Shown: in pieces, positions 5,401 to 53,896 of the stretch
Layout: each line of letters begins with the position of its first letter
Numbering within the stretch: the stretch's first letter is position 1
The notes under the pieces: generated by a model
Told to the model about the DNA's origin: nothing
Seen by the model: the letters and a program-made list of their open reading frames with translations, nothing else
The model's database searches: none
Virus record (IMG/VR): IMGVR_UViG_3300033463_000007
Location: 159,865-223,864 of that record
DNA length: 64,000 nt
Source of the DNA: a virus
Lineage: Duplodnaviria > Heunggongvirae > Uroviricota > Caudoviricetes
Direction: 5' to 3' (one strand)
Translations under genes and position numbers: made by a program

Positions 5401-5688
5401 GGGACAACATTAAATATTGGAACCGCAGCGGATCCAGATGCGGTTTATACTGTAACAGGTACTGCTATATCAGAATATGACTTATATTCATTATTAAATA
5501 ATGCTAAATGGGGTAATTCTGGTGATCTTGCAGGTACAACTGTATTATTCTCTAATACACCTGAGCTCACAAATATTGGTACTAAAGCAGTTACATTTAC
5601 AGCTGGCTCTGATAACTATACAAGTTTAACAATTAATAATAATGAAATTAAATATAATGATACTCGTGTATATGGCGAAGCTGAGTAA
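2461..5688 (+). CDS. Large tail fibre / receptor-binding repeat protein (~1075 aa) formed by ORFs 2461..4263, 4498..5139 and 5215..5688 joined through TGA=Trp
   Basis: All three standard-code ORFs are in the same frame and separated only by TGA codons (4261, 5137); repeated x-I/V-TGT-Y/F-T beta-strand motifs; ends with TAA. Confidence 0.55.
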
Positions 5689-18134: not shown

Positions 18135-19196
18135 ATGTTTGATAGGCTTGAAAGTATATTAAATAAATATGATGAGCTTTCAATGAAATTAAGTTCTTCA
18201 GAAATTATTTCAAGTAATTTATATCAGCAATATAGTAAAGAGTTAGCAGATATTCAAGAAATTGTTGATACTTATTCTGCTTATAAAGACGCACAGGATT
18301 ATTTAGAACTACTTAAAGAAGATGAAGCTAAAAATACTGATTTGGAATTAAAAGTACTATATAATAGTGAAATTAAAGAAACTCAAAGTAAATTATCAGA
18401 GCTAGAAAATAATTTAAAATTATTATTATTGCCAGCTAACAAGGATGATTCCAAAAATATTATTATGGAAATTCGTGCAGGAGTTGGCGGAGATGAAGCA
18501 GCTATTTTTGCAGCAGATCTTTTTAATATGTATTTAAAATATACACAAAAACAAGGTTGGAATGTTTCAGTTAGTAGCTATACTGAAGGTGTTCTAGGTG
18601 GTTTTAAGGAAATTATCTTAAGTATTTCTGGTAAAAACGTTTATCAAAAATTAAAATATGAAGGTGGAGTACATCGGGTACAACGAGTACCAGAAACTGA
18701 GGCTAGAGGCAGAATTCATACATCAACAGCAACAGTTGCAGTACTTCCAGAAAGAACAGAAACAGAAGTTATAATTGATCCAAAAGATATTACTATTGGT
18801 TTATTTCATTCCGGTGGGGCTGGTGGTCAAAATGTAAACAAAGTTGAAACAGGTGTACGTATAACACATATTCCTACCGGAATGGTAGTTGCTTGTCAAG
18901 AAGAGCGGTCACAGCTACAAAACAAAGAACGTGCTTTTGAAATATTGCGCGCAAAGTTATGGGATTATTATAATACTCAAAATATTAATTCTGAAATAAA
19001 CCAACGAAATAGTATGATTGGTACTGGTGATAGATCAGAAAAAATTCGAACTTATAATTTTCCGCAGCATCGTATAACCGACCATAGAATTAATTATACT
19101 ACTTATAATATAGAAGAAGTATTACAAGGTAATTTAGATGATTTAATTGAACATTTACAAATTGCAGAAAATGCAAAATTGTTAATTAATCAATAA
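18135..19196 (+). CDS. prfA: Peptide chain release factor 1
   Basis: GGQ motif (SGGAGGQNVNKVETGVRITHIPTG), PxT-type tripeptide region RVPETEARGRIHTSTATVAVLPE, C-terminal HRINYT; 353 aa; no TGA codons. Confidence 0.85.
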   Translation: MFDRLESILNKYDELSMKLSSSEIISSNLYQQYSKELADIQEIVDTYSAYKDAQDYLELLKEDEAKNTDLELKVLYNSEIKETQSKLSELENNLKLLLLPANKDDSKNIIMEIRAGVGGDEAAIFAADLFNMYLKYTQKQGWNVSVSSYTEGVLGGFKEIILSISGKNVYQKLKYEGGVHRVQRVPETEARGRIHTSTATVAVLPERTETEVIIDPKDITIGLFHSGGAGGQNVNKVETGVRITHIPTGMVVACQEERSQLQNKERAFEILRAKLWDYYNTQNINSEINQRNSMIGTGDRSEKIRTYNFPQHRITDHRINYTTYNIEEVLQGNLDDLIEHLQIAENAKLLINQ

Positions 19197-19232
19197 GATT
19201 AAAAGAGCCTGTTTTAGCCAGGCTCTTTTTTA
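19197..19232 (+). terminator. Rho-independent terminator after prfA
   Basis: AAAAGAGCCTGTTTTAGCCAGGCTCTTTTTTAT hairpin, followed by TTTGCTAAATTATATAG motif. Confidence 0.6.
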
Positions 19233-19269
19233 TTTGCTAAATTATATAGTAAATATGGAGGATTTTATT

Positions 19270-20127
19270 ATGTTAAAATTTAAAGTACCAAAGCAACAAG
19301 ATTTAGATTTAGATCAGTTGATTTTTGATAGAATTACTTTTGGCAATACACAACCATCACCAAAAGATGATCGAGATTATATTGCGCAAGCTAAAGATTG
19401 ATCTAAAATAAAATTTCCAAAAGAATATAGAGCACCAAAAACAGAAGTTTTAAATCAAGAAAATTATGGGTCTTGCGTAGCTCATTCTTGCGCCACCGCT
19501 TTAGCCCAAGGAGAACAACTTATTTCAAATACCCACAATAATTATTCTCGCGGTTATATTTATGGTAATAGAAAATCAACTGACTTGCAAACTGAGGGTA
19601 TGATTGTTAGGCAGGCATTAAAGCAACTACATAATTGTGGAGATGTTCTATATGATGATTTTCCATATAATAAAACTTATCCTATGGTAAAAGCTTTAAT
19701 TGATATTGATAGAGAATATTTAGCAAATAAAGCAAAGCAGTATACTATTTTTGATTTTTATAGGTGTTGTGATGAAAATCAGTTAAAAGATGCTATTATA
19801 TCCTCCGGTGCAGTTATAATTGTAGTTCCTGTTTATAGTGATTTTGCCCGTGATTTACATAAAACTCAATCATGGGAACTCCGAGGCTATCATGCAATGG
19901 CTTTAGTTGGTTGAACTGCTGATAAATGAATTGTACAGAATTCTTGAGGCTTAGAATGGGGTTATGATGGTTGTTTATTAATGGATATGGATTATCCCAT
20001 AATTGAAAGCTGAGGCATAACCGTTAATAAGGAACTTAAAAAGTCACTTTGATATAGAATAAAAACAATTTTTAAACAATTTTGAAATTGAATTAAATAT
20101 ATCTGAAATAAAATATTTAAAAAATAA
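19270..20127 (+). CDS. Papain-like (C1) cysteine peptidase, paralog of 135..1187
   Basis: NYGSCVAHSCATALAQ Cys motif, GYHAMALVG-W-TADK-W-IVQNS-W-GLE-W-GYDG with W=TGA; ORF continuous only under TGA=Trp. Confidence 0.6.
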
Positions 20128-21529: not shown

Positions 21530-23023
21530 ATGAAGAAGACAGATAATTATCAACAAAATATAGATGAAAATAGTGATAAAAATTTTGAATCAATTGGGTA
21601 TGATGAACCAATTGATTTATTATATAGTGAATTAGTTGCCTCTAAGGAAACACCAGAACAAGTAATTATTTATACTGATTTTACACGTAGAACAGAATTA
21701 CCTACTGAAAATGATAAATATGTTAAATCATATATTCGTGAAGCTGATGGCGGATGAAATTTAGCTATTAAAGGTAAGCCTACTCATGAATTATGCACTG
21801 TATTAAGTAATTGTGTAGGCTGAGCCGCTGGTAGATATAATGAAATTTATGATGAAATTAAAAATATCACAGGTCATCATTATCCTTATTTAGTTTGTAA
21901 TGCAGAGGATTTTCCAGTTCGAGCCAAAAAATCATATCCTGATATTATAATGGATCAAACTCCTGAACCTGGCGCAATAATGGTCTGAGAAGGTATTGGT
22001 AGTCTCGCAGGACATGTTGCTATTGTAGAAGAAGTGATAGATAATAATACTGTATATACTTCTGAATCAGGTTATGGTAGTACTATTCCAATGAGATACC
22101 AAAAAAGAGTTAATGATAATGGTTGTTGAGGCATGAACACAACAAATTATAAATTTACTTGCTTTATGCACAATCCAGCAGTTGAAAAAACTATTATTAA
22201 TATAGTGCAACCAGTTGAAAGAGATGTACTAATAGATCAATTATATATTGATACACCTAATTATTCATATATTAGAATGGATCATAGTACAGCTTCTAAA
22301 GCCATAGGGCAGTTTAAACAGGGATATTTTAATTATACCGATAGTTTTATTGGCGATGATTATGTTTGATATAAGCTTGCTGAAAATCAATGAGTTGCTA
22401 AAACAGGCCATATCCAAGTATATCCTAAAGTAAATCCAAGTATAGAAAAAATTGAATTGAATGAAGACTATACTAATACATATTATGCAGGTGATTTTTT
22501 ACAGTTTAAAATGATAGGTTTAAATTGCAAAGAATATTGAAATACCGGGGAAGTAAAAGATGTTGTTTATAATAATTATAAAATAATACCAGCAAATGGC
22601 ACAGCTTTAACTGTTAATGATACAAAAATTATTATTAATTTTGAAAATAATTTAACTCTTGAATTACCTCTTGAGATAAAAGTTAAGGTTGAGCCAAAAG
22701 TTGTAAAAATACAGCTTTCTGGCACGTATAAAACTGAATATTGAGAAGGCGAAAAACTTGATTTAACTGGTCTTATTGTTGAAGCAGTTTATGATAATGG
22801 TGAAATTACTTCATCTATACCTTATATTGCTTCACCACAGGCAAATAGTTTGTTACCATTTATGGGGACTCAAAACGTTGTAATTGCTGCTTATCTTGAC
22901 AACAAAGGATTTTCAACTTCTTTTAAAATAAATGTAAAACATAAACAAACTGCAGCCGAAAAATTCAGTCAAATGATACAAGCACTAGCTAACTTTATTA
23001 GAAGTTTATTTAATAAAAAGTAA
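21530..23023 (+). CDS. CHAP-domain peptidoglycan hydrolase with C-terminal Ig-like repeats (lysin / tail-associated lysin)
   Basis: CTVLSNCVG-W-AAGRY (Cys) and GAIMV-W-EGIGSLAGHVAIVEEV (His) CHAP motifs; many TGA=W; C-terminal KVVKIQLSGTYKTEY-W-EGEKLDLTGLIVEAVYDNG Big-like domain. Confidence 0.6.
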
Positions 23024-28406: not shown

Positions 28407-28430
28407 AATAATTTAGTAAAGGGGATTTTT

Positions 28431-29456
28431 ATGTCAGTAAAAGATGCGTTAATAGCTACTCATTTATTTTTAGAAAACGACTACTTTTTTCGGTATATTG
28501 ATTTAATTGAAAAAAATAAAAATAGAGTAAAACAAAAGTATAAAACTCAAAAACATCATATTATTCCAGCTATTGCTTTTAAATTATATAATTGAGAAGG
28601 TATTGATGCACCAGAAAATTTAGTTAATTTATTATATAAAGATCATATTTTAGCTCATTATTATTTAGCTTTAGCTACTAAAACTTCTGATTTTCAATAT
28701 AAAATGATTGCTGCTATAAATTTTATTTTAGGTAAAGCTAAACAAAGTAAAATAGATATACAAGAACTACAAACTTTTATCTTAAATTTGGAAAATTATC
28801 AAAATTTATATGAAAATTGAATTAAAGAAAGAAGTTTATTACTTCACTCCAAATTATTAGGTCATGAAACTTCTGAAGAAACAAGAAAAAAAATAAGTGA
28901 AGCAAATAAAAATAAAATTTATATTTATAAAGAAAATATAGTACGTGCTGTTCATAAAGAAGACTTACAATTATTTTTAGATAATGGTTGAACTTTAGGA
29001 AATCCTAACTGTCAAAAAAGAAAACAGACCACAGGACAGACTATTATACATAAAGAAGAAATTGAAAAATATATTTTTAAAGAAGACTTATCTTTATATT
29101 TAGCTAATGGTTGAATATTAGGACGAAGTGACCAACATAAAAAAGCAACACAGCAAGGAACACAAGCTTATTATGATAAATTAACAAAAGAAGAAAAAAT
29201 TAATAAATGTGCAACTAGACAAAATCAACACTGAGAAATGTCAGAAGAAACAAAGAAAAAAATAAGTAATGCAAAGTCTGGAAAAAAGCAATCTGAAGAA
29301 CAAAAACTTTTAAATAGTCAAAATAAAAAAGATACAATTTGAATGACTAATGGTCAACAAGATATTATGATTAAAAAAGATTTAGAACTTTATTATTTAG
29401 ACCAAGGTTTTATTCGAGGAAGAACTAATTATAAAAAAAATAAAAAAGGAGAATAA
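28431..29456 (+). CDS. Free-standing HNH homing endonuclease with NUMOD3-like repeats (341 aa, 9 in-frame TGA=Trp)
   Basis: KHHIIPAIAF HNH core; repeated SEETRKKISEANK / SEETKKKISNAKSG (NUMOD3) and LQLFLDNG-W-TLG / LSLYLANG-W-ILGR repeats; preceded by TTTGCTAAATTAATTAG motif; invisible in the standard-code ORF track. Confidence 0.55.
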
Positions 29457-34560: not shown

Positions 34561-35124
34561 ATGAAATTATTACAACATTTAAAAACTATACATATACATA
34601 GGAAATACGTAAGAAAAGCTTGCTTTAAAGTTGGACTTTTTTGGCAAGGACTATTACATGATTTAAGTAAATATTCTATAATAGAATTAGGTATAGCAAA
34701 ATATTATACTGGTAAAAAATCTCCTCACCAAACCTGTCGAGAAATACTTGGATATAGTCCTTCTTGGAATCATCATTATCATCATAATAAACACCATTTT
34801 CAATTTTGGTGGGATGAGAATGAAGCAGGTCAAATTATTCCTATAAAGATGCCCTATAAATATATTGTAGAATCTGTTTGTGATATGCTTGGAGCGAGTA
34901 AAGCATATAACAGAGAAAATTGGAAGCCAGTAATACTTTGGAATTATTGGATATCTAAATGTAAAGGTAAGCGAATTATGCATGAATCATCGATTTATCT
35001 TACAGAAAAACTTCTTAATTATATTTATATGCATGGAGAACAAGAATTTTATATCTGGTATAAAAAATATAAAAATTATTTAAAAGAACATTATAATAAT
35101 GATAATAATAATTTAAATTATTAA
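34561..35124 (+). CDS. Hypothetical His-rich protein (paralog of 9346..9951)
   Basis: Shared HH..N.HH and DM..ASK motifs. Confidence 0.35.
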   Translation: MKLLQHLKTIHIHRKYVRKACFKVGLFWQGLLHDLSKYSIIELGIAKYYTGKKSPHQTCREILGYSPSWNHHYHHNKHHFQFWWDENEAGQIIPIKMPYKYIVESVCDMLGASKAYNRENWKPVILWNYWISKCKGKRIMHESSIYLTEKLLNYIYMHGEQEFYIWYKKYKNYLKEHYNNDNNNLNY

Positions 35125-35144
35125 TACGGAAAAAGGATTACGCT

Positions 35145-35201
35145 ATGAAAACATTATTACTTATGCGAGGTGCCCCTGTTTTATATGCCTATAAAAGATA
35201 G
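35145..35201 (+). CDS. 18-codon ORF duplicating the N-terminus of the downstream Pnkp-like gene (MKTLLLMRGAP...)
   Basis: MKTLLLMRGAP vs MRTLLLLRGAP at 35323; own RBS AAAAGGA. Confidence 0.3.
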   Translation: MKTLLLMRGAPVLYAYKR

Positions 35202-35322
35202 AGCTAATAAAATTTTAAAATTACGTCGTATTAAAAAATAGTTTAAAAACTTTTAAAAATAAAATAATTATTATAATATATATATAATCTATAGATTATA
35301 TAATGGAAGGTAGGTGATTATT

Positions 35323-37539
35323 ATGCGCACTCTCTTACTTTTAAGAGGTGCTCCTTAGCCAGGAGCAGGTAAGTCAACTTGGATACAGCAACACAATTTA
35401 CATGATTATACTATTTGTCCTGATGAGTTACGAGTTCTTTGTGCCTCAAAAGAGCTTATGGCTAACGGTGAGTATACAATTACTCAAGAAAGAAATAATG
35501 AAAATAAAGTATGGTCTTTATTATTTGATATTCTTGAATATAGAATGTCAAGAGGTGAATTTACTGTTATAGATGCTACTTGTTCTAAAACAAGAGATAT
35601 TCAACAGTATAAGGATCTTGCAGATCATTATAGATATAGAGTATATATTGTAGATTTTACAAAAGTGCCTCTTGAAACTTGTTTAGCACAAAATAAGCAG
35701 CGTCATCCCGATAAGTGGGTTCCGGATGATGCAATTAAAAATATTTATGCTAGATTTGCTACCCAGCCTATTCCTAAAGGTGTGTCTGTAATTCAGCCTG
35801 ATGAATTTGATACAATTTTAGAAACTCCTTTTGATGTATCTAACTATAGAAAATTAGTATTCATTGGAGATATTCATGGTTGTTATGATACTTTAATGCA
35901 GTATCCTGATTTCAAAGATGGATTAAAAGATGATACAGAATATATTTTTATTGGAGACTATATTGATAGGGGCAATCAAAATTATGAAGTCTTAAAGTTT
36001 CTTGGCGAAATAAAAGACCTTCCTAATGTTTGCTTACTTGTAGGAAATCATGAAAATCATATTCAAGATTTTGGAGACGGTATTACTGCAAAATCTAGGG
36101 AGTTTGAAGAAAAAACTAAAGTAGAGCTTCAGACAAAGGGATATACAGAAAAAGAAGCTAGAATGTTTTATAGAAAACTTAGACAGTTTTCTCACATCAC
36201 TTGGAATAGTTTTGAAATTCTAGCTTGTCACGGGGGAATTCCTAATCTTACAAAAAATCTACTCTATGTACCTTCTGAAAAACTTATTAAAGGATCAGGG
36301 TCTTATAGTGATTATTTAACGGTTACTGCTTCTTGGATGGCCCAGACAAATAGTAATCAATATTTAATTCATGGTCATAGAAATACTGAAGGTAGTGAAA
36401 CACAGATTGCTGATCGAGTTTTTAATCTTGAAGGCAAAGTAGAATTTGGTGGGCAGCTAAGAATTGTTGAATTAGATAAAGATGGTTTTCATACTATTGA
36501 GCTTGATGATTGTCAGCCAATTACTGAAGATCTTAATACCGAAACTCGACCGGTAGAGACAGTTGAAGACGCCATTTCTTATCTTAGAAATAATAAGTTT
36601 ATTCAAGAAAAGAAATTAAATGAACAAATATCTTCATTTAATTTTACCCGTGATGCTTTTTATAAAGGAAATTGGAATAGACAAACAATTCTAGCTCGTG
36701 GATTATTTATTGATACTGAAGCTAAAAAGATTATGGCTAGATCATACGAAAAATTCTTTAAAATTGGTGAAGTAAATTCTACTGAATTAGCTGTTTTAAA
36801 AAGTAAATTACAGTTTCCTGTAAGTGCATATGTTAAAGAAAACGGTTTTTTAGCTATTGTATCTTATGATTATAGAAATGATGATTTATTCATTGCATCT
36901 AAATCGACTAATCAAGGAGACTATGTTGAATATATCAAGACTGCTATCGAACCGTATAAAATAAATTTATTTAATTATTTAAAATATGCTAATGAAAATG
37001 GCAATAATATCTCTATGGTATTTGAATGTGAAGATCCTGAGCATGACCCACACATTATTAAATATAATAAGCTTAGAGTAGTTTTATTAGATATAATTTC
37101 TAACCAACTTGATTTTTTTGCTTGGCCTTATGAGCTAACTAAAAAAGTTGCAGAAGAAGTAATTTATTGTCCTGTAAAAGAAAAAGCATATGAATTTAAA
37201 GATTGGGACTCTTTTAGGGAATTTTATTCTGAAATCCAAGAAGATGATTATCAGTATAATGGAAAATATGTAGAAGGATTTGTATTTGTAGATTCTAACG
37301 GATTTCAAACAAAGTGTAAGACTCCTTATTATAATCAATGGAAAAAACTTAGAGGTGTTGCAGACCAGACTCTAAGACAGGGTTATATAGTAAAAACAGG
37401 AATGTTAATTAATTCTTTAGAAAATCTTTTTTATGGTTTTTGTAAAGATTTATATAAAACTTATAGAGATCCTGAAACAAAAACTTATCCATTTAAAACT
37501 GATATTATATCTTTAAGAGAAAGGTTTTTAGTTAATTAA
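35323..37539 (+). CDS. Polynucleotide kinase-phosphatase-ligase (Pnkp-like RNA repair enzyme) with in-frame TAG at codon 12 (35356-35358)
   Basis: P-loop LLRGAP-TAG-PGAGKSTW; metallophosphoesterase GDIHG...GDYIDRG...GNHE; C-terminal nucleotidyltransferase/ligase VKENGFLAIVSY (KxNG motif I); ORF 35458..37539 is the same frame. Confidence 0.5.
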
Positions 37540-37540
37540 T

Positions 37541-37981
37541 ATGACTAAAGATGAATATTATATTAAAATAGCTGAAGCAGTATGTCTTAAGTCAAAATGT
37601 TTTAAAAAACATTATGGATCTGTTATTGTAAAAAATGATACTGTAGTTAGCACAGGTTATAATGGCACAGCTCGCGGTGAAGCAGAATGTACTATTTGTA
37701 CAAAAATAGATTCAGATAAAGATTTAAAAGAATATTCTACTTGTCCTGCTATTCATTCTGAAATGAATGCAATTATTTCAGCATCAAGAGAAGAAATGTT
37801 AGGCTCAACTCTTTATCTAGCTGGCTGGGATGTGGCTAAAGAATGCTTCATAGAAGCTAAACCTTGTGAAATTTGTTTACGTCTTATCAAAAATGCTGGC
37901 ATAGATAGAGTTGTTAATTCTTCTGGTACACTCTATTTAAGAAATAATTTTGGTATTTTAAATAAAATAGAGGCTAATTAG
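37541..37981 (+). CDS. dCMP deaminase
   Basis: HSEMNAI and PCEICLRLI zinc-binding CDA motifs. Confidence 0.7.
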   Translation: MTKDEYYIKIAEAVCLKSKCFKKHYGSVIVKNDTVVSTGYNGTARGEAECTICTKIDSDKDLKEYSTCPAIHSEMNAIISASREEMLGSTLYLAGWDVAKECFIEAKPCEICLRLIKNAGIDRVVNSSGTLYLRNNFGILNKIEAN

Positions 37982-45493: not shown

Positions 45494-45791
45494 GTTTTTT
45501 AATTTAATATTTGGTTAATTTTAAAATATTGCAACTAAAATATTTTGATAGGTGATTATAAAAAAATAATTTTAATTAGGCCTAATAATTATCATTTATA
45601 CTCATTGAAGTTTTCTGAAAAGATCAGTGAAGTTGCTACCTCTCGATATATAGGTGAAAGAAATCGGACCGCTATAAGGTGGGGTGCGGTTTAGACCCCT
45701 AAAGACAGCCGTCATTGAATGGTGATCACCCTATTCCATTCATTTTTTTATCTACTGCTGGTGTGGCTCAATGGCAGAGCAGCTGATTTGT

Positions 45792-46369
45792 AAAATAAAT
45801 TGCAACCTTGTAAGGAAACTTATAAGTGAAAATCTCGCTAATTCGGGGAAACCTACAATGAGTAGAATCTATCTTAATTGTGGTAGAAAAATTACCGGAC
45901 GAGGGCTTAAGTATTGTAACAATGTTTGCCAGAAAGAATATGAATATAAATCATATATTGAAAGATGGAAACAAGGTTTAGAAACTGGGCTTCGTGGGGA
46001 GTATCAAATATCTGATTTTATTAAAAGATATTTGTTTGAAACTCGTGGTAAGAAATGTGAACTGTGTGGTTGGGATAAAGTAAATCCTTTAACAAAAAAT
46101 GTTCCTGTAGAAATCCATCATATAGATGGAGATTACAAGAATAATTCAGAAGAAAATTTACAAATTTTATGTCCAAACTGCCATTCACTTACAAATACCT
46201 ACAAAAACTCTAATACTAATAATGGTAGAAAAGAGAGAAATAAATACTCGTCATGACAATCCCGAGCTAGGTTAATACCGAGTGTAGAGACTTTACACGA
46301 GAAACCTAAACCTATATAGGCATGGTTAAGAGAAAGTCCAGACTACAATGTGAAAACGATGTAGCACTG
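45792..46369 (+). ncRNA. Group I intron (td-like, subgroup IA) in tRNA-Thr anticodon loop
   Basis: P element CTAATTCGGGGAAACC (45836-45851), Q element GACAATCCCGAGCTA (46262-46276, near-identical to T4 td intron GACAATCCCGTGCTA), R element GTCCAGACTACAATG (46336-46350). Confidence 0.55.
45858..46256 (+). CDS. Intron-encoded HNH homing endonuclease
   Basis: MSRIYLNCGRK zinc finger; CELCG...VEIHHIDGDYKNNSEENLQILCPNCHSL HNH motif; ORF track extension to 45771 overlaps the tRNA 5' exon and is probably not translated. Confidence 0.6.
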   Translation: MSRIYLNCGRKITGRGLKYCNNVCQKEYEYKSYIERWKQGLETGLRGEYQISDFIKRYLFETRGKKCELCGWDKVNPLTKNVPVEIHHIDGDYKNNSEENLQILCPNCHSLTNTYKNSNTNNGRKERNKYSS

Positions 46370-46422
46370 AATCAGCAGGTTGATGGTTCGACTCCGTTCA
46401 CCAGCTCCAATAAATTATAAGA

Positions 46423-47020: not shown

Positions 47021-47080
47021 GCCCAGGTAACTCAGCTGGTTAGAGGAAATTGTGTCGTGGGTTCAAGTCCCACCCTGGGT
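47021..47080 (+). pseudogene. tRNA remnant lacking the anticodon stem-loop (acceptor + D-arm fused to T-arm + acceptor)
   Basis: GCCCAGG-TA-ACTCAGCTGGTTAGAGG ... GTGGG-TTCAAGT-CCCAC-CCTGGGT: only 10 nt where ~22 nt of anticodon arm plus variable loop should be. Confidence 0.35.
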
Positions 47081-47285
47081 TTTTTATAAAAGTTACAGTA
47101 AAATTATTAGCTAAATTAAAAGAATAAAATAGCTAAGATAGAAAAAATAGCACAACCAAAGAAATTTGGTGTCGCAAAGCTAAAGGGCCCTTTCCGGGCA
47201 GCCAGTTGCTTCTAGGAGACATTACTCATGGAAGCTTTTATTTTATTTATATTTTATTAAAAATTTATATAAAGGGGAAAAATTT

Positions 47286-48714: not shown

Positions 48715-49695
48715 ATGAAAAATAAATTTTTAATTTGTATAATTAGTCTATTTACTATAGCTGCTTTATTTGGAACAACTTATTCTGCTTGATTATTCAC
48801 TGATGTCGCTATCGCCTCAAATCAATTTCAGGTTGAGGTACTTTCTTGAGTTTTTGGTGATAATGGTTTTGCTAAAATTGAAAATGTTCGAAATGGTACC
48901 AATGTAATTATTACAAAAGAAGAAAATATTACACAAAATAGTTCTGAAGCTATTAGAATGACTAGCACTACTGGAACATCTACAAAAGATCATATAATAA
49001 ATATTAATTTTGATCGTGATTATTATCTTTCAGAAATTCAGTTTTATAAATTTGAATTTGATTATTATCATAGATATAAAAGAGAACAGTATGATAAAGG
49101 GTTTCCTAAGATACAATTTACTATAAACAATTCAACTTTAGGAAGTGATCAGGGTGGAACTGACTATTGTACTGAAACCTCCGCCTTTGTAGTAACAGAA
49201 ATTGATGAAAATTGGTGACATTTAGAATATTATGTATTTGCTAATATGCCAACAATTGCTCGACATAGTGATACTCCAATTGCTTTAACTAAAAAAGTAA
49301 ATGGCGTTAGAATTACAGATCGAACTATGTATGATTATGCTGGTACTACAGCTTTTGTTATTATTGATAATATGCAATTTAGTGCGGAGCCCACCTCCAG
49401 ATTGGGCATATTTAACAGATGGACCGGAGATACTGCTGGAAATTATTTTTGGGTTAAAGTTGCATTTTCTGGGCAGCCACATTCAGTTAAGCTTTATTCA
49501 AGTGATACAAGCATAGCTGTTCCTGAATTTGATCCTAGCGATATAGTATCTACTTCATATCCGTTTCCTAATGGAAGTCCATTTTATGTACAATTTTTAA
49601 AAGCTGGTACAGTGACTATCACAGCTGTTTTGGAACTTGGTGATAATCATGAAATACAAACTATTAGTTATACTTATATAGTTACAGATCCTTAA
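48715..49695 (+). CDS. Secreted protein (signal peptide; ORFs 48958..49218 and 49246..49695 joined via TGA=Trp)
   Basis: MKNKFLICIISLFTIAALFGTTYSA-W signal; frame continuous through 4 TGA. Confidence 0.4.
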
Positions 49696-49775: not shown

Positions 49776-50181
49776 GGGGGTGTAAAGGTTTCGACAGGGT
49801 TAAGAAAGTGATAGTATACGCAGGAGTTATTCACCTTACGAATCGGTAATTTAAAATAAACGACAATACAATTGTTACTTTTAGTCCTTTCTTAATTAAT
49901 GCACTCTCTTCTATGAGGGCTGCTGCTTAAGATATTATAGGCGCCAAAACAATACGCTGGTGATCAAGCAAGTATTTGAGGTCAAAGAACGGGTCACATA
50001 AAGTTGTCCAACTTTAAAATGGACTGGTGGAGACGGATAAAACCGGCGCAACTCATTTAATATATTGAATTTGCTTATTTTACATTATATTAAATTATTT
50101 TATTAAATAAGCTAGTGCGTAAGTATTATACTATTTTAGTATTAATTTTGGACAGGGGTTCGATTCCCCTCACTTCCACCA
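49776..50181 (+). ncRNA. ssrA: tmRNA (ssrA) with long tag ending -AAA
   Basis: 5' GGGGGTGTAAAGGTTTCGACAGGG (cf. E. coli GGGGCUGAUUCUGGAUUCGACGGG), 3' GGACAGGGGTTCGATTCCCCTCACTTCCACCA; acceptor with G3:U70; tag ORF ...GAC AAT ACA ATT GTT ACT TTT AGT CCT TTC TTA ATT AAT GCA CTC TCT TCT ATG AGG GCT GCT GCT TAA = (N)DNTIVTFSPFLINALSSMRAAA. Confidence 0.75.
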
Positions 50182-50185: not shown

Positions 50186-50261
50186 CTGGGTGTAATTCAG
50201 TTGGTAGAATGCGTGATTTGGGATCACGATGCCGGATGTTCAAGTCATCTCACTCAGACCA
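50186..50261 (+). tRNA. tRNA-Pro(UGG)
   Basis: CTGGGTG-TA-ATTC-AGTTGGTA-GAAT-G-CGTGA-TTTGGGA-TCACG-ATGCC-GGATG-TTCAAGT-CATCT-CACTCAG-A-CCA. Confidence 0.7.
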
Positions 50262-50403: not shown

Positions 50404-51191
50404 ATGAATTTATTTAAATGCTACCTATCCGACAGTAAGTGATATAAAGAAGCCGTAAGAAATGGTCAACCCATTGGAATTCTTTGACATGACACTGCTG
50501 CTGGAAACCCAAACTTAAAACGTTATGTCCAACCAAATGAATCAGATCCAGATTATGATAAGCTTATGGCAATGCTTGGAAAGAATCAATATAATAATTC
50601 TTGACAGCATTCTACCATGAATAAAGGTGTAAATGCTTTTATTGGTAAACTAGAAGATGGCTCGGTTGCAACAGCTCAATTAGGTGAATGAGATATTCAT
50701 GCTTGAGGTTGTGGGGGCGGAAATAAAGGCTCCTGTAATGGTTATACTATTGTAAATGGTAAAACAACTTGAGTTGAACCTTTTTGGATTCAATTTGAAA
50801 CTTGCGACGACTTTTATACTGATAAAAGCTACTTTGAAGCGGTCTATAAAGAAGCTTGTGAGTTTACAGCTTATATTTGTAAGCAATTTAATATTGATCC
50901 AAATGGTACCGTAGAGTTTAATGGTGTTCAGGTACCTACTATTTTATGTCATGCAGATAGCTATAAGCTTGGACTTGGAAATGATCATGGTGACGTTTTA
51001 GTATGATTTAAAAAGTTTGGTAAAACTATGGATGATGTAAGAAGAGATGTGGCTGCTATCTTACAAGAAGAAAAAGAAAAAGATGATAAAGATAAAGACG
51101 ATGAAGAAATAGATGAAAATACATTTCTCAAATGCTTTAAAATAGTCATCAAATTTATTAAACAGCTCTGGTATAGCACAAATAAAAAGTA
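50404..51191 (+). CDS. N-acetylmuramoyl-L-alanine amidase (Amidase_2/PGRP-like endolysin); 9 in-frame TGA=Trp
   Basis: GIL-W-HDTAAGNP, HA-W-GCGGGNKGSCNGY, PTILCHADS zinc-ligand pattern; completely fragmented in the standard-code ORF track. Confidence 0.65.
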
Positions 51192-51198
51192 AAACTTT

Positions 51199-51240
51199 AA
51201 AAGACCCCAGAATTCTGAGGTCTTTTTATTGTATAATATA
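51199..51240 (+). promoter_or_regulatory. Terminator-promoter cassette upstream of polA
   Basis: AAAGACCCCAGAATTCTGAGGTCTTT hairpin then TTATTGTATAATATA. Confidence 0.5.
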
Positions 51241-51267
51241 AAGAATAAATTTATAGTAGAGGTTGTT

Positions 51268-53037
51268 ATGTCTAGTTTATTTGGTGATGAATTTGAAATT
51301 AAAATTAAAGAACCAGTAGTTAAAGATTTAATTAATAAAACAAAAGCTAAGAAAGAAGCAGAGATTGATCCTGAAAAGCTTTTAAAATCAAAGAAGACCT
51401 CTTTACTCGATAGATTAGCTCTTATTAATGAAAATGTATCTAAAATTTTGGGTAAGCAAAAACATAATGTTTTAGTAATTAAAGATAAACAAACATTTGA
51501 AAATTATATTACTGAAGCCATTAAATCCGGTCGAATCGCAATAGATACAGAAACTAATAATTCAACAGACCCCGTAACTTGTAAATTAATGGGTCCTTGT
51601 TTCTATTATCCTGGTGGTAAACAGGCTTATGTACCTATTAATCATAGAAATCCGGAAACAAAAGAACGGCTTTCATGGCAATTAACAGAACAGGACTGTC
51701 AGGAGCAGTTTAAAAGACTTGTTGATAGCCATAATGAAATTATAATGCATAATGGCAAATTTGACTATGAAGTTATTAAATGTACATGTGGAATCGAAGT
51801 TGTTCCAGATTGGGATACTCTAATTGCTGCAAGATTAATAGATGAAAATACATTTAAAGATGCTGCTATTGGCCTTAAATCACTATATACTAAATATATT
51901 GATCCGGAGCAAGAAAAATACTCAATAGATCATTTATTTGCAAATGTTACATATGCTGATGTAGATCCAGATATTTTTGCTTTATATGCTGCCACAGACT
52001 CAATGATGACTGATAAAGTATATATTTGGGAGCATAAAACTTTTTATGATTTACCAGAAAATCAACCTGTATTAAATTTGCTTAGAACTATTGAAATGCC
52101 GATTATTCAGGTTACAGCTGAAATAGAATTACGCGGTGTTTTTATTGATCAGGAGCTTGGTGAAAGACTTAAGATAAAATATAATAATCAACTTAATGAA
52201 TTAGATAATAAAATTAATCAAATTCTAGTAGATATAAAACCGATTATTTCAACTTGGCGGCTTACAAAAGATGCAGTAGATCAAGCTAAACAATATGTTT
52301 CCGCAAAATCTAAAATGACAGCTGAAAAAATTGAAACAACATATCCTTTTATTGATAAGGATGGCAGACGTTATAAAATTGGTAAATCAAAGTCAGAACA
52401 GCTACCTGAAGATGTAAATCTTGCATCTCCTACACAACTTGCTATTTTATTGTATGATATTTTAGGTTGCCCAGTAATTGATAAAAAGAATCCAAGGGCT
52501 ACAGGTGAAGAAGAAATTGGTAAAATTGTTGAGAAATTAGAGTCAAAGGAGACAAATGATATTAAAGTAGCCGCGGCTAAACAGCTTTGTAGTAGCATTT
52601 TGCAGCGTAGAGGCTTAGCTAAGTTAATTACTACTTATATTGATGTTATTCCTGACTTGGCAAAGCATTGGCCAGACGGTAGAATTAGATATAGATTAAA
52701 TTCAACCGGCACAGACACAGGTCGTTTTGCCTCTGGTGGCAAGTTTAAATTCCTAGATGAAAATGAAAACCCAGTAGAATTAAACTCAATTAATAGCCAA
52801 AATTTACCTTCTCATAATGCAGAAATTAGACTTTTATTTAAAGCCAGTGAAATTTATAATAAATGTTATTGTAATGATGATGTTTATAAGATTCAAGTCG
52901 GTGATGAAGTTGAAACTATTGATGGCTGGAAAAATGTTAAAGAATTAAAAGTTGGTGATGTTATTATTGGTGATGAAAGTCAGGATACTATTATTAATAT
53001 AGTTCAAAAAGAGCAAACTTATTTAATTTATATTTAA
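51268..53037 (+). CDS. polA: DNA polymerase I (family A), 3'-5' exo + N-terminal part of polymerase domain (exon 1 to ~52857; remaining 60 codons are in-frame read-through into the insertion)
   Basis: IAIDTETN (Exo I), HNGKFDYEV (Exo II), RIRYRLNSTGTDTGRFASGG and NLPSHNAEIRLLFKASEIY align to Klenow RIHTSFNQTGTATGRLSS and NLQNIP...IRQAFIAPEDY. Confidence 0.7.
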   Translation: MSSLFGDEFEIKIKEPVVKDLINKTKAKKEAEIDPEKLLKSKKTSLLDRLALINENVSKILGKQKHNVLVIKDKQTFENYITEAIKSGRIAIDTETNNSTDPVTCKLMGPCFYYPGGKQAYVPINHRNPETKERLSWQLTEQDCQEQFKRLVDSHNEIIMHNGKFDYEVIKCTCGIEVVPDWDTLIAARLIDENTFKDAAIGLKSLYTKYIDPEQEKYSIDHLFANVTYADVDPDIFALYAATDSMMTDKVYIWEHKTFYDLPENQPVLNLLRTIEMPIIQVTAEIELRGVFIDQELGERLKIKYNNQLNELDNKINQILVDIKPIISTWRLTKDAVDQAKQYVSAKSKMTAEKIETTYPFIDKDGRRYKIGKSKSEQLPEDVNLASPTQLAILLYDILGCPVIDKKNPRATGEEEIGKIVEKLESKETNDIKVAAAKQLCSSILQRRGLAKLITTYIDVIPDLAKHWPDGRIRYRLNSTGTDTGRFASGGKFKFLDENENPVELNSINSQNLPSHNAEIRLLFKASEIYNKCYCNDDVYKIQVGDEVETIDGWKNVKELKVGDVIIGDESQDTIINIVQKEQTYLIYI

Positions 53038-53101
53038 TTTTTTATCTTGACCGGTAAAATCAGTGCTAAATTAATTAGATTAATATTTTGGAGGTTTAAT
53101 T

Positions 53102-53896
53102 ATGGCATATGGTTTTATTTATAAAATAATAACTACAGCTTCTAATAAAGTTTATATTGGACAAACAACTAGAACTATTGAAGAACGTTACCAAGAGCAT
53201 TTGAAAGCAAGAAATAGTAAAGATAAAAATACTTTACATTTATATCTTGCTATGAATAGGTATGGCGTTGATACTTTTAGTGTTGAAAAAATTGATGAAG
53301 CTAATACACAAGAAGAACTAAATCAAAAAGAAATATATTGAATTAATTTTTATGATTCAATGAATAATGGATATAATATGGCACCTGGTGGTAGCATAAA
53401 TATTTTTGAATCTGAAAAAGTTAGAAAAAAACATGCAGCAAGCATGCGTGATCCAAAAACACGAGAAAAAATTTCTAAAACAATGCATGAGCTTAGAACT
53501 ACTTTTGGCTTTTCTGAGGAACATAAAAAAAAGATACGTGAATCAAGTCGAAAGCGAAAAGAAGAACGGGCAAAGTTAGGTTTAAAATATTATGATGATT
53601 GTTCACATTGTGCAACTAGATCAAAAGCAGTTTATTGTATATTAGATACCGGTGAAAAATTTGAATTTGATTCTATTTTACACGCTGGTAAATGATGATA
53701 TGAAACATACAAACCCTTTGGTGAAACTTATTCTACTGCTACCTATCAAAGAAAAATTGAAGCCTCTATTGCGGGTAAAGAAATTATTTTCCAATCCGGA
53801 CATGACAGTAGAAGTCAAGGTAAAAAAAATATTATTATTAAAATAACTAATATAAAATGATTTTATAAAGATAATTGAAATGGAGGTGATGCCTAA
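53102..53896 (+). CDS. GIY-YIG homing endonuclease inserted within polA (intron-encoded)
   Basis: GFIYKIITTASNKVYIGQTTRTIEERYQEHL GIY-YIG motif; ORFs 53102..53341 and 53360..53695 same frame joined by TGA; preceded by GTGCTAAATTAATTAG motif and RBS GGAGG. Confidence 0.7.

What the first reader, a model, noticed from the sequence alone, without database searches (positions are those of the whole stretch)
35323..37539. Tri-functional polynucleotide kinase / 2',3'-phosphatase / ligase-like RNA repair enzyme
Three domains occur in order: an N-terminal P-loop kinase, a central calcineurin-type phosphoesterase (GDIHG, GDYIDRG, GNHE), and a C-terminal nucleotidyltransferase-like domain with a KxNG motif (VKENGF). 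This is the Pnkp architecture used to heal and seal tRNA breaks. The phage carries its own intron-containing tRNAs, a tmRNA and a suppressor system, so tRNA repair against host anticodon nucleases would protect the recoding machinery.
Basis: partly seen in the sequence, partly recalled or inferred. Interest (0 to 1): 0.55.

Follow-up and report, generated by a model that had tools for sequence, protein, structure and literature searches.

The report
Candidate ribosome hop in RNA-repair gene

Summary
The gene at 35323-37539 does encode a P-loop kinase, a metallophosphoesterase and an RNA ligase. It belongs to a large, already annotated phage family (phrog_8238, more than 4,400 relatives). The ligase is of the Rnl1/Trl1 type, not the bacterial Pnkp type.

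The reading frame is not continuous. Codon 12 is TAG (35356-35358), inside the Walker A motif: GAP*PGAGKST. Relatives read GAPGAGKST, so the window carries 6 extra bases (CCT TAG CCA).

The same insert occurs in 8 distinct genomes from 11 samples. Its leader peptide is conserved. A leader hairpin of about -12 kcal/mol is found only in these alleles. Homing-endonuclease genes of two types lie directly upstream. The window keeps a footprint of the acquisition: an 11-codon remnant of the old gene start (35145-35177) plus the endonuclease gene's last 16 codons (35191-35241).

In one lineage the insert is 7 bases (CCT TAGG CCA). There, stop-codon readthrough cannot restore the frame, but re-pairing of prolyl-tRNA from CCU to CCA can.

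The kinase domain stays under purifying selection (dN/dS about 0.06) in genomes carrying the stop.

Best reading (confidence about 0.6, untested): a mobile endonuclease-linked cassette whose 6-7-base insert is bypassed by a short translational hop. This resembles the T4 gene 60 cassette but arose independently and is far shorter.

The parts
35145..35177 (+). Remnant of the former intact gene start: ATG + 10 codons, MKTLLLMRGAP, ending exactly at the Pro codon of the P-loop. It lies 20 nt after the DUF5662 gene, as in intact alleles.
   Evidence: Aligns base for base with the gene start of intact alleles L009 and L126. It is in a different frame from the gene body.
35178..35190 (+). Junction or filler of unknown origin between the remnant and the imported cassette (GTTTTATATGCCT).
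   Evidence: No counterpart in L009 or in L120/L121.
35191..35241 (+). Last 16 codons plus stop of a GIY-YIG-type homing endonuclease gene (IKDRANKILKLRRIKK*). The rest of that gene is absent from the window.
   Evidence: Matches the 3' end of the intact 286-aa ORF in L120, L121 and L129. That ORF hits phrog_7168 and phrog_314 'homing endonuclease' at E about 1e-18.
35242..35322 (+). Cassette-borne upstream region with a TATAAT-like box and Shine-Dalgarno sequence (GGAAGGTAGGTGA, 35305-35317).
   Evidence: Conserved among stop-bearing alleles and different from the upstream region of intact alleles.
35323..35355 (+). Leader: ATG + 10 codons, MRTLLLLRGAP (strand beta-1 and the first half of the Walker A motif).
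   Evidence: The peptide is identical in 6 of 8 alleles despite synonymous changes.
35327..35351 (+). Leader hairpin GCAC-U-CUCUUA-[CUUU]-UAAGAG-GUGC. Its 3' arm ends 1 nt before the take-off codon.
   Evidence: Minimum free energy of the first 36 nt is -11.6 to -13.7 kcal/mol in all 8 stop-bearing alleles, against -2.0 to -6.2 in 9 other gene starts (8 intact alleles plus the window remnant). 96% of cells are paired, with 1 compensatory and 1 wobble change.
35345..35350 (+). Shine-Dalgarno-like GAGGTG, 2 nt 5' of the take-off codon and 8 nt 5' of the landing codon.
   Evidence: Read from the sequence. It is also present in intact alleles because it encodes Arg-Gly.
35353..35361 (+). Proposed stop-hop site: take-off CCT (35353-35355), stop TAG (35356-35358), landing CCA (35359-35361).
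   Evidence: GCT CCT TAG ... CCA GG is invariant in all 8 alleles. One lineage has an extra G (CCT TAG G CCA).
35362..37539 (+). Gene body: rest of the P-loop (GAGKST), kinase, phosphoesterase, ligase, and stop TAA.
35332..35757 (+). Polynucleotide-kinase-like P-loop domain (AAA_33), interrupted at 35356-35361.
   Evidence: Pfam E 1.6e-18. PDxxR and IDAT motifs at 35416-35433 and 35566-35580.
35851..36528 (+). Metallophosphoesterase domain of the lambda phosphatase / calcineurin type.
   Evidence: Pfam E 1.5e-14. Motifs GDIHG, GDYIDRG, GNHE, CHGG and HGHRN. Fold match to lambda phosphatase 1g5b.
36694..37332 (+). Rnl1/Trl1-type RNA ligase adenylyltransferase domain. Motif I lysine lies in KENG at 36835-36846.
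   Evidence: Pfam PF09511 E 1.9e-35. Sequence match to solved Trl1 ligase at E 1e-11. Fold E 1e-14.

Best explanation
The gene encodes a kinase / metallophosphoesterase / Trl1-Rnl1-type ligase enzyme that heals and seals broken RNA. Its 5' end has been replaced by a mobile cassette.

The cassette consists of a homing-endonuclease gene (only its last 16 codons survive in the window), a promoter and ribosome-binding region, a new 11-codon leader, and a 6-base insert (TAG CCA) placed exactly in the P-loop codons.

Inferred mechanism:
- The endonuclease cuts intact alleles at the conserved P-loop-coding DNA.
- Repair copies the cassette into the cut allele.
- The insert destroys the target site and so protects the carrier.
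- To keep the kinase, ribosomes carrying peptidyl-tRNA-Pro on CCU, with the slowly decoded UAG in the A site, release the codon, slide 6 nt (7 nt in one lineage) and re-pair on CCA. Decoding resumes at GGA, and the normal GAPGAGKST loop is made.
- Re-folding of the leader hairpin behind the ribosome, and the GAGGUG Shine-Dalgarno-like sequence, are proposed helpers.

What is shown: the anatomy, its conservation, its association with endonuclease genes, and selection on the kinase. What is inferred: the endonuclease target and the hop itself.
For: 1. The insert is real and recurrent. It occurs in 8 distinct alleles: window=L007, L008, L118=L119, L120, L121, L059, L122=L123 and L129=L130, from 11 samples. 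Close relatives read GAPGAGKST with no insert.

2. The flanking codons are matched Pro codons. CCT is the take-off and CCA the landing codon in all 8 alleles, although neighbouring synonymous sites vary (GGT/GGG, GGA/GGT/GGC).

3. In L129/L130 the insert is 7 nt. Frame 0 reads GAP*ARLR*. Only CCU-to-CCA re-pairing gives MRTLLITRGAP|GSGKSTW. Landing set by codon match rather than by frame is the hallmark of bypassing (PMC5009743).

4. The leader is translated and constrained. L059 and L122 differ from the window only by synonymous changes, and the peptide is 100% conserved where the next 32 residues are 62% identical.

5. A hairpin specific to stop-bearing alleles abuts the take-off codon. Stability is -11.6 to -13.7 kcal/mol against -2.0 to -6.2. 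Leu-codon changes fall in the loop. There is one A-U to G-C compensatory change that costs two amino-acid changes, and one A-U to G.U change.

6. The kinase is kept under selection while the stop is present. Between L120 and L121, the endonuclease gene (dS 0.30), the ribbon-helix-helix gene (0.27), thyA (0.34) and the kinase domain (0.41) have diverged to a similar extent. The kinase dN/dS is 0.063, and residues 12-41 show 7 synonymous and 0 non-synonymous changes. All catalytic motifs are retained in the window and in L122.

7. No conserved internal start exists. L122 has no Met at the position of window Met44, and its first in-frame ATG (codon 62) has no Shine-Dalgarno sequence.

8. Mobility. 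Endonuclease genes lie directly upstream in L120, L121 and L129 (phrog_7168/314, E about 1e-18) and in L059 and L122 (DUF7487, phrog_3339). The window shows a remnant of the old start ending exactly at CCT, followed by the endonuclease gene's 3' end and the cassette.

9. Precedent and plausibility from the literature:
- The T4 gene 60 bypass is part of a homing-endonuclease element and protects against self-nicking. There too the endonuclease is often lost or swapped for GIY-YIG or VSR types, and take-off and landing codons may differ at the wobble base (bioRxiv 10.1101/2022.08.31.505936).
- Synthetic stop-hops are known (PMC5009743).
- Decoding of a stop after Pro is especially slow (PMC3082878).
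- tRNA-Pro(UGG) pairs better with CCA than with CCU and is prone to shifting (PMC4519876).
- Pairing of mRNA as it exits the ribosome drives forward bypassing.
Against: - No protein or ribosome data exist. The hop is inferred from sequence alone.
- Synthetic stop-hops without stimulators are described as low-level.
- The nascent chain is only 11 residues long. It cannot provide a gene 60-type tunnel signal, and peptidyl-tRNA drop-off is a risk (my inference).
- Evidence for the hairpin is thin statistically. There are 5 distinct sequences and one double-sided change, and 104 of 500 shuffles do as well.
- The Shine-Dalgarno-like sequence is also present in intact alleles.
- The cassette is horizontally mobile. 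Gene bodies of stop-bearing alleles do not form a clade, and the window body is closest to intact L009. Part of the apparent purifying selection could therefore pre-date acquisition.
- Some relatives have lost or altered the P-loop (P0262 lacks it; P0253 reads GCSKST). A kinase-dead enzyme can evidently persist.
- The same DUF7487 endonuclease family also sits upstream of intact alleles (L124, L125).
Confidence: 0.6

Rival explanations
1. Selfish cassette with a dead kinase. The UAG simply terminates translation after 11 residues. The endonuclease cassette spreads despite knocking out the kinase, or the whole gene through polarity. Any product starts at an internal Met (Met44 in the window) and has only phosphoesterase and ligase activity.
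For: - The only uninterrupted ORF is 35458-37539, and gene callers everywhere start these alleles internally.
- The cassette is clearly mobile, and the window acquired it recently.
- Relatives with deleted or altered P-loops exist (P0262, P0253).
- RNA-repair genes are accessory genes.
Against: - The in-frame or codon-matched design is conserved in 8 alleles, including a 7-nt version.
- The leader peptide is conserved through synonymous changes, and the hairpin through a compensatory change.
- Kinase dN/dS is 0.06, and residues 12-41 show 7 synonymous and 0 non-synonymous changes, between two genomes that share the whole cassette.
- No conserved internal start or Shine-Dalgarno sequence exists (L122).
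- Stop-bearing alleles persist after the endonuclease gene is lost (L008, L118).
Confidence: 0.24
2. Recoding without a hop. Near-cognate or suppressor readthrough of UAG in the 6-nt alleles, and a +1 shift at the 'shifty stop' CCU_UAG_G in the 7-nt allele, give a P-loop with two extra residues (GAP-X-P-GAGKST or GAP-R-P-GSGKST).
For: - Both routes keep the downstream frame.
- Pro-stop contexts favour shifting (PMC3082878).
- tRNA-Pro(UGG) is prone to shifting (PMC4519876).
Against: - Two different mechanisms are needed in sister lineages, where one hop explains both.
- No amber suppressor tRNA is in the window, and TAG is an ordinary stop elsewhere (dCMP deaminase 37541-37981).
- The product would carry a 2-residue insertion in a motif whose length is fixed in 140 of 159 relatives.
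- It gives no reason for the invariant CCA or for a 5' hairpin.
Confidence: 0.1
3. The 184 nt at 35178-35361 are an intron. Splicing would join the remnant start (35145-35177) to GGA at 35362 and give MKTLLLMRGAP|GAGKSTW.
For: Removing exactly 35178-35361 restores a perfect intact-type ORF.
Against: - No group I or group II intron or other RNA family hit in 34900-35700.
- The segment is AT-rich and consists of an endonuclease-gene 3' end plus a promoter and ribosome-binding region.
- The other 7 stop-bearing alleles have no upstream 'exon 1'.
Confidence: 0.03
4. Sequencing or assembly artefact.
For: The window comes from a metagenomic assembly.
Against: The same site occurs in independent assemblies from 11 samples and three data sources, with flanking divergence.
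Confidence: 0.01

Closest known systems
T4 gene 60 translational bypass within the MobA homing-endonuclease element (bioRxiv 10.1101/2022.08.31.505936; PMC5009743)
   Same: - A stop (UAG) follows directly after the take-off codon.
- The landing codon is read by the same tRNA, and wobble differences are allowed.
- An mRNA stem-loop lies at or 5' of the take-off, with a Shine-Dalgarno-like sequence upstream of the landing site.
- The insert sits in highly conserved coding DNA next to a homing-endonuclease gene and, in T4, protects against self-cleavage.
- The endonuclease is often decayed, lost or swapped between families while the insert is kept.
   Different: - The gap is 3-4 nt (a 6-7 nt displacement) instead of 50 nt.
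- The codons are Pro, not Gly or Asp.
- The site lies 11 codons from the start, so no long nascent-peptide signal is possible.
- The host gene is different (an RNA-repair kinase, not topoisomerase).
- The two inserts differ in length and sequence, which points to an independent origin (no formal comparison was run).
- Nothing has been tested experimentally.
Synthetic 'stop-hops' in E. coli (Weiss et al. 1987, as reviewed in PMC5009743)
   Same: Matched codons flank a stop, so that 9 nt specify one amino acid. The event depends on a slowly decoded A-site stop.
   Different: Those were engineered and low-level. The review states that no natural occurrences are known. Here the site is natural, conserved, has a 10-nt variant and has a candidate stimulatory hairpin.
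prfB (RF2) +1 frameshift 'shifty stop'
   Same: A Shine-Dalgarno-like sequence lies a few nt 5' of a P-site codon that is followed by a stop. Forward re-pairing of the peptidyl-tRNA follows.
   Different: Re-pairing here is on a non-overlapping codon 6-7 nt downstream. It is not autoregulatory.
Phage kinase-phosphoesterase-ligase family phrog_8238 (for example Staphylococcus phage Twort ORF008, Bacillus phage Goe11 c00950)
   Same: Full-length homology (E 2.7e-195; 36-40% identity), with the same three domains and motifs.
   Different: The cultured-phage members inspected (Goe11, KKP_3916, Twort) have an uninterrupted P-loop region. I found no biochemical characterisation in the papers searched.
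Bacterial Pnkp (Clostridium thermocellum Pnkp/Hen1; TIGR04075)
   Same: An N-terminal P-loop 5'-kinase and a central binuclear metallophosphoesterase in the same order. The presumed role is healing 5'-OH and 2',3'-cyclic or 3'-phosphate RNA ends.
   Different: The C-terminal ligase domain belongs to another family (PF09511, Trl1/Rnl1-like). The score is far below the family cut-off (70.7 against 750 bits). There is no Hen1 partner.
Fungal Trl1 and the T4 Pnkp + Rnl1 tRNA repair pathway
   Same: The ligase domain is closest in sequence and fold to Trl1 ligase, then to T4 Rnl1. Kinase, end-healing phosphoesterase and ligase are combined for tRNA restriction-repair or splicing-type chemistry.
   Different: The domain order is reversed relative to Trl1 (ligase-kinase-CPD). 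The phosphoesterase is a metallophosphoesterase, not a 2H cyclic phosphodiesterase (Trl1) or a DxDxT phosphatase (T4 Pnkp).

Membership tests
Phage kinase-phosphoesterase-ligase family (phrog_8238) | Full-length match to the family profile | tested here: met
   E 2.7e-195, residues 1-733 against profile positions 1-729 of 737. 112 phage records cover at least 80% of the protein.
Phage kinase-phosphoesterase-ligase family (phrog_8238) | Uninterrupted N-terminal Walker A motif GxPGxGK[ST] | tested here: not met
   TAG CCA is inserted between GAP and GAGKST. 140 of 159 relatives held have the contiguous motif.
Phage kinase-phosphoesterase-ligase family (phrog_8238) | Metallophosphoesterase metal-binding motifs | tested here: met
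   GDIHG, GDYIDRG, GNHE, CHGG and HGHRN. Pfam E 1.5e-14.
Bacterial Pnkp (TIGR04075) | Score above the curated cut-off over the whole protein | tested here: not met
   70.7 bits against a cut-off of 750. Only residues 3-378 align, to profile positions 9-399 of 851.
Bacterial Pnkp (TIGR04075) | Pnkp-type C-terminal ligase domain | tested here: not met
   The C-terminal domain is PF09511, and the Pnkp profile does not extend into it.
Bacterial Pnkp (TIGR04075) | Adjacent Hen1 methyltransferase partner | tested here: not met
   The neighbours are DUF5662, dCMP deaminase, DHFR, FolD, dUTPase and others. No Hen1-like gene appears.
Rnl1/Trl1 RNA ligases (PF09511) | Pfam match above the gathering score | tested here: met
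   123.2 bits against 28.3.
Rnl1/Trl1 RNA ligases (PF09511) | Nucleotidyltransferase motifs I, III, IV and V | tested here: met
   KENG, VFECED/DPHII, EGFVFV and TKCK align to Trl1 motifs.
Rnl1/Trl1 RNA ligases (PF09511) | Adenylyltransferase fold | tested here: met
   Foldseek gives Trl1 ligase at E 1e-14 (TM 0.59-0.66) and T4 Rnl1 at 1e-10 (0.50). The domain's pLDDT is about 90.
Rnl1/Trl1 RNA ligases (PF09511) | ATP-dependent RNA sealing activity | not testable with these tools
   Needs biochemistry.
Programmed translational bypassing | Take-off and landing codons readable by one tRNA | tested here: met
   CCT and CCA in all 8 alleles.
Programmed translational bypassing | [quoted passage not shown] | tested here: met
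   UAG follows Pro in all 8 alleles. Pro-stop decoding is especially slow (PMC3082878).
Programmed translational bypassing | Coding resumption set by codon match, not by frame | tested here: met
   A 6-nt displacement in 7 alleles and a 7-nt displacement in L129/L130. Both restore the same P-loop.
Programmed translational bypassing | Conserved stimulatory mRNA structure | tested here: inconclusive
   The hairpin is present in all stop-bearing alleles and absent from intact ones. There is only 1 compensatory pair, and the shuffle control is not significant.
Programmed translational bypassing | Nascent-peptide signal | not testable with these tools
   The leader is only 11 residues long. Its peptide is conserved, but any role is unknown.
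Programmed translational bypassing | Joined protein product observed | not testable with these tools
   Needs mass spectrometry or a reporter assay.
Free-standing homing-endonuclease cassette | Endonuclease ORF adjacent to the insertion | tested here: met
   Intact in L120, L121 and L129 (phrog_7168/314) and in L059 and L122 (DUF7487, phrog_3339). The window holds only the last 16 codons. L008 and L118 have none.
Free-standing homing-endonuclease cassette | Presence/absence polymorphism with defined junctions among close relatives | tested here: met
   L009 and L126 (no cassette) compared with the window (remnant + cassette).
Free-standing homing-endonuclease cassette | Endonuclease cleaves the insert-free allele, and the insert confers immunity | not testable with these tools
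   Inferred from the junction lying exactly at CCT|GG and from the T4 precedent.

The most novel reading that the evidence does not exclude
This is a naturally selected, horizontally mobile 'stop-hop'. A 6-7-nt stop-containing insert is planted by homing-endonuclease cassettes in the P-loop codons of a phage RNA-repair kinase. It serves as the cassette's immunity scar. Ribosomes neutralise it by sliding peptidyl-tRNA-Pro from CCU to CCA, helped by a leader hairpin. That would make it an independent and much shorter counterpart of T4 gene 60, and the first natural case of a phenomenon known only from synthetic constructs.
Probability: 0.55. Interest if true: 0.9.

Novelty: new variant of a known kind. 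Interest (0 to 1): 0.8.

Why it matters
Programmed translational bypassing has essentially one well-studied bacterial or phage example (T4 gene 60 and its homologues) plus the yeast mitochondrial elements. A 2016 review notes that natural in-frame stop-hops are unknown (PMC5009743).

A second, unrelated, endonuclease-linked bypass would have several consequences:
- It would show that 'insert a target-breaking scar and let the ribosome skip it' is a general strategy of selfish DNA.
- It would offer a minimal experimental system: 9-10 nt, an 11-codon leader and one hairpin. With it, the requirements for take-off, sliding and landing could be dissected without a long nascent-peptide signal.
- It would warn annotators that N-terminally 'truncated' phage genes may be recoded. 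About 8% of the family members sampled here are called without their P-loop.

The enzyme itself adds little. It is a member of a widespread, unstudied phage RNA-repair family whose ligase is nearest to fungal tRNA ligase.

Tried and rejected
- Amber suppression or TAG reassignment. ARAGORN and Rfam find no tRNA(CUA). TAG ends ordinary genes. The recoded codon in this phage is TGA (code 4), and this gene contains no in-frame TGA.
- Intron. Rfam finds nothing in 34900-35700, and the other alleles lack an upstream exon.
- Take-off-style hairpin GCUCCU/AGGAGC around the stop. It is perfect in the window but not conserved: AGGUGC in L118-L121 and AGGAAG in L059. It is largely a by-product of the A-P-G-A codons.
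- Promoter and terminator scan of 34900-35700. No better than shuffled sequence.
- DNA pattern scans for the site. There were 0 hits in IMG/VR, 1 true hit of 53 in JGI metagenomes and 0 true hits of 55 in GTDB genomes. The rest were chance matches in GC-rich DNA.
- Window-wide scan for other stop sites with matched flanking codons. It was dominated by chance out-of-frame hits. The P-loop site is the only in-frame synonymous case.
- Near-identity search of the window against GenBank phages. No match.
- Pairwise dN/dS among stop-bearing alleles as proof of function. This was only partly usable because the cassette is mobile. I relied on the L120/L121 pair, whose whole region has diverged to a similar extent.
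They have no covariance-model support.
Full report
**1. The observation**

The ORF listing finds an uninterrupted ORF only from 35458 to 37539 (693 aa). The product reads MRTLLLLRGAP, then TAG (35356-35358), then PGAGKSTW... in the same frame. The stop lies inside the Walker A motif.

With the six bases TAGCCA left out, the 736-aa product hits three Pfam families:
- AAA_33, residues 4-143, E 1.6e-18
- Metallophos, residues 175-313, E 1.5e-14
- RNA_lig_T4_1, residues 456-668, E 1.9e-35

All quoted motifs are present. The domains are therefore real, but the interval is not one ORF.

**2. What the enzyme is**

It matches phrog_8238 ('RNA ligase') end to end at E 2.7e-195. Full-length homologues at 36-40% identity occur in 112 GenBank phage records, including Staphylococcus Twort-like, SPbeta-like Bacillus, Enterococcus and Lactobacillus phages. 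The metagenome protein collection holds more than 4,400 relatives.

The bacterial Pnkp model TIGR04075 aligns only to the kinase and phosphatase part: residues 3-378, 70.7 bits against a cut-off of 750.

The C-terminal domain is closest to fungal Trl1 ligase:
- By sequence, E 1e-11; T4 Rnl1 is not reached by phmmer.
- By predicted fold, TM 0.59-0.66 for Trl1, then 0.50 for T4 Rnl1. Lambda phosphatase matches the middle domain.

Ligase motifs I, III, IV and V are conserved across the family. The gene sits in a nucleotide-metabolism block with thyA, a deoxyribosyltransferase, DUF5662, dCMP deaminase, DHFR, FolD and dUTPase, and has no Hen1 neighbour. A role in healing and sealing cleaved tRNA is the reasonable inference from the domain chemistry (compare PMC7824862). 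It is untested, and I found no paper that characterises this family.

**3. The stop is an insertion, and it recurs**

Relatives read ...RGAPGAGKSTW with no gap:
- P0001 (89% identity) and P0002 (83%)
- the IMG/VR loci L004-L006
- Goe11 and KKP_3916

The window therefore has 6 extra bases, CCT TAG CCA.

P0003 (85% identity) was called from the same internal Met. Its contig L008 shows the identical 45 nt, ATGCGC...GCTCCTTAGCCAGGA. Cluster members and pattern scans added further examples:
- L118=L119, L120 and L121
- L059
- L122=L123
- L129=L130

In all, 8 distinct alleles come from 11 samples in ENA, Logan and JGI. Among the closest relatives (at least 83% identity), six called proteins are of the stop-bearing type and three are intact.

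**4. The genetic code does not explain it**

The phage reads TGA as Trp. In-frame TGA codons lie at conserved Trp positions, for example in a papain-like peptidase and a GIY-YIG protein. TAG, in contrast, is an ordinary terminator: dCMP deaminase ends in TAG at the same length as its homologues. No tRNA with a CUA anticodon is present. The window holds only a tmRNA, a tRNA-Pro(UGG) and a tRNA-like element with no anticodon arm.

**5. The insert belongs to a mobile cassette**

*Intact alleles.* In L009 and L126 the gene starts 20 nt after DUF5662.

*The window.* It keeps that old start, ATGAAAACATTATTACTTATGCGAGGTGCCCCT at 35145-35177, which ends exactly at the Pro codon. After it come, in order:
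- 13 nt of filler
- the last 16 codons of an ORF (IKDRANKILKLRRIKK*)
- an AT-rich region with a ribosome-binding site
- the new leader with TAGCCA

*The upstream ORF.* Read in code 4, that ORF is intact in L120, L121 and L129. It is 286 aa long and has a GIY-YIG-like N-terminus. It matches phrog_7168 and phrog_314 'homing endonuclease' at E about 1e-18. The Pfam GIY-YIG hit is only E 0.011.

*A second endonuclease type.* L059 and L122 carry a different ORF (DUF7487, phrog_3339 'homing endonuclease') in the same place. The two copies are 46% identical.

*Other arrangements.* L008 and L118 have only a small ribbon-helix-helix ORF upstream. That ORF also precedes an intact allele in L128, so it is not part of the cassette. 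DUF7487 homologues also lie directly upstream of intact alleles in L124 and L125.

*Mobility.* Gene bodies of stop-bearing alleles do not form a clade. The window body is closest to intact L009. In the window, the switch from cassette-like to L009-like sequence occurs within about 10 nt after TAGCCAGG.

*My inference.* A double-strand break occurred at CCT|GG in an intact allele. It was repaired by copying from a cassette donor, with premature end-joining on the left side. This places the nuclease's cut at the very point where the cassette carries its 6-nt insert, which fits a role for the insert in self-immunity.

*Precedent.* The T4 gene 60 bypass is described in the same terms. It belongs to a homing-endonuclease element and protects against self-nicking. 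The endonuclease is frequently pseudogenised, lost, or replaced by GIY-YIG or VSR-type enzymes while the bypass is retained (bioRxiv 10.1101/2022.08.31.505936).

**6. Evidence that the leader and the body are joined in translation**

(a) *The leader peptide is constrained.* L059 and L122 differ from the window in the leader only by synonymous changes (CGC to AGA, CTT to TTA or TTG, TTA to CTA, GGT to GGG). Between the window and L122 the leader peptide is 100% conserved, while residues 12-43 are 62% identical.

(b) *The kinase is under selection in stop-bearing genomes.* L120 and L121 share the whole cassette, and the region has diverged to a similar extent throughout:

| Region | dS | dN/dS |
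|---|---|---|
| Endonuclease gene | 0.30 | 0.09 |
| Ribbon-helix-helix ORF | 0.27 | – |
| thyA | 0.34 | – |
| Kinase domain | 0.41 | 0.063 |

Residues 12-41 of the kinase show 7 synonymous and 0 non-synonymous changes.

(c) *The kinase is as conserved as the other domains.* Identity between the deeply diverged stop-bearing lineages (window and L122) is 70% for the kinase domain, 74% for the phosphatase and 68% for the ligase. An intact-versus-stop comparison gives the same kinase value. All catalytic motifs are kept.

(d) *There is no conserved internal start.* L122 lacks the Met44 equivalent. Its first in-frame ATG is at codon 62 and has no Shine-Dalgarno sequence.

**7. Hop versus readthrough**

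GCT CCT TAG ... CCA GG is invariant in all eight alleles, while adjacent synonymous sites vary.

L129/L130 is decisive. Two samples give identical sequence, and proteins P0269 and P0272 are truncated at the same point. There the insert is 7 nt: CCT TAG G CCA GGC TCA GGT AAG. Frame 0 reads GAP*ARLR*, and the gene body is in the +1 frame. Readthrough therefore cannot join them. Re-pairing of tRNA-Pro from CCU to CCA gives MRTLLITRGAP|GSGKSTW.

The only alternative in that lineage is a +1 shift at CCU_UAG_G, which would give GAP-RP-GSGKST. That requires two different mechanisms in sister lineages, and in both cases a 2-residue insertion in a motif of fixed length (140 of 159 relatives).

Landing defined by codon match rather than by frame is what distinguishes bypassing (PMC5009743). 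Wobble-different take-off and landing pairs also occur in the gene 60 family.

**8. Candidate stimulators**

*Hairpin.* All eight stop-bearing alleles fold their first 36 nt into GCAC-U-CUCUUA-[CUUU]-UAAGAG-GUGC, at -11.6 to -13.7 kcal/mol. Nine other gene starts (eight intact alleles and the window remnant) give -2.0 to -6.2. The substitution pattern fits a conserved stem:
- The Leu-codon changes in L059 and L122 lie in the 4-nt loop.
- L120's only non-synonymous change turns an A-U pair into G.U.
- L129 has a compensatory A-U to G-C change, although this alters the peptide from LLL to LIT.
- L122 loses two outer pairs but extends the inner stem.

Formal covariation is weak. With 5 distinct sequences there is 1 double-sided change, and 104 of 500 shuffles do as well. 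I rate the structure as suggestive.

*Geometry (my inference).* The 3' arm of the hairpin ends 1 nt before CCU, so it lies inside the ribosome at take-off. A forward slide of about 6 nt would let the inner helix form behind the ribosome. Pairing of mRNA as it exits the ribosome is proposed to drive forward bypassing in gene 60.

*Other features.*
- GAGGUG lies 2 nt 5' of the take-off codon and 8 nt 5' of the landing codon. It is also present in intact alleles because it encodes Arg-Gly.
- Decoding of a stop after Pro is especially slow (PMC3082878).
- tRNA-Pro(UGG) pairs more stably with CCA than with CCU and is prone to shifting (PMC4519876).
- The phage encodes a tRNA-Pro(UGG) with a normal anticodon loop. 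Whether that tRNA matters here is unknown.

**9. Caveats**

- Everything about the hop is inference.
- Unstimulated stop-hops are described as low-level.
- An 11-residue nascent chain cannot act like the gene 60 peptide and may favour drop-off.
- The cassette is mobile, so some of the apparent selection may pre-date acquisition.
- Family members with deleted or altered P-loops exist (P0262, P0253 and others). They show that kinase loss can be tolerated. They also suggest that these codons are a target under pressure from endonucleases.
- I therefore keep a 0.24 probability for a selfish cassette with a dead kinase, and 0.10 for readthrough or a +1 shift.

**10. Novelty and verdict**

The enzyme is an ordinary new member of a known, annotated phage family.

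The interrupted P-loop is the real finding. It is a conserved stop-containing insert of 6-7 nt, carried by endonuclease cassettes, whose design, variation and selective context fit a short translational bypass. The literature I could search reports natural bypassing only for T4 gene 60 homologues, yeast mitochondria and a few candidates. It states that natural stop-hops are unknown (PMC5009743).

I rate it a new variant of a known kind, with interest 0.8. A junction-peptide experiment would decide it.

Noticed in passing
window 2446-5688, 19186-19914, 22541-23023, 28407-28820, 48850-49695, 50773-51192, 53084-53695: In-frame TGA codons lie at conserved Trp positions (for example papain-like 'KD*SKIKFP' and GIY-YIG 'EIY*INFYDSMNNGYN'). 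The phage reads TGA as Trp (code 4). The nucleotide-metabolism block around the finding has no in-frame TGA.
   Followed up: partly
window 49776-50181 and 50186-50261: A phage-encoded tmRNA (tag ...ALSSMRAAA) is followed 4 nt later by a tRNA-Pro(UGG) with a normal anticodon loop. This is the tRNA species that the proposed CCU-to-CCA hop would use.
   Followed up: partly
window 47021-47081 and 47139-47213: A tRNA-like element (Rfam tRNA, 40 bits) has acceptor, D and T arms but no anticodon arm, and is followed by a T-run. It lies 57 nt upstream of a c-di-GMP-I riboswitch.
   Followed up: partly
window 51193-53037 and 53084-53695: A DNA-polymerase-like ORF ends abruptly (...KEQTYLIYI*) and is followed by a GIY-YIG-like ORF containing an in-frame TGA. 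This may be a polymerase gene split by a homing endonuclease.
   Followed up: no
window 14812-15175 and 45757-46409: ARAGORN run with introns allowed predicts tRNA-Ala and tRNA-Thr with introns of 288 and 578 nt.
   Followed up: yes
proteins P0262, P0253, P0045, P0056, P0091, P0047 (family relatives): The P-loop of this protein family is unusually variable. P0262 lacks it (MRTLILT-KVRENGL). P0253 reads GAPGCSKST. Several read G[SC]PA[AS]GKS, and one reads GCCGAGKT. This may reflect escape from endonucleases that target these codons.
   Followed up: no
L124 4001-4948, L125 3924-4973, L009 7792-8703: DUF7487 homing-endonuclease homologues sit immediately upstream of the same gene in genomes with an intact P-loop. 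In L009 a homologue lies between dCMP deaminase and DHFR. Gene callers using code 11 fragment these ORFs at TGA.
   Followed up: partly
window 35145-35201: The remnant start, with its own ribosome-binding site, now opens an 18-codon ORF (MKTLLLMRGAPVLYAYKR*) just upstream of the cassette. It is probably a by-product of the insertion.
   Followed up: no
L122 7651-7821: A small ORF with a weak ArfA (alternative ribosome-rescue factor) Pfam hit lies directly downstream of the stop-bearing gene in L122/L123.
   Followed up: no
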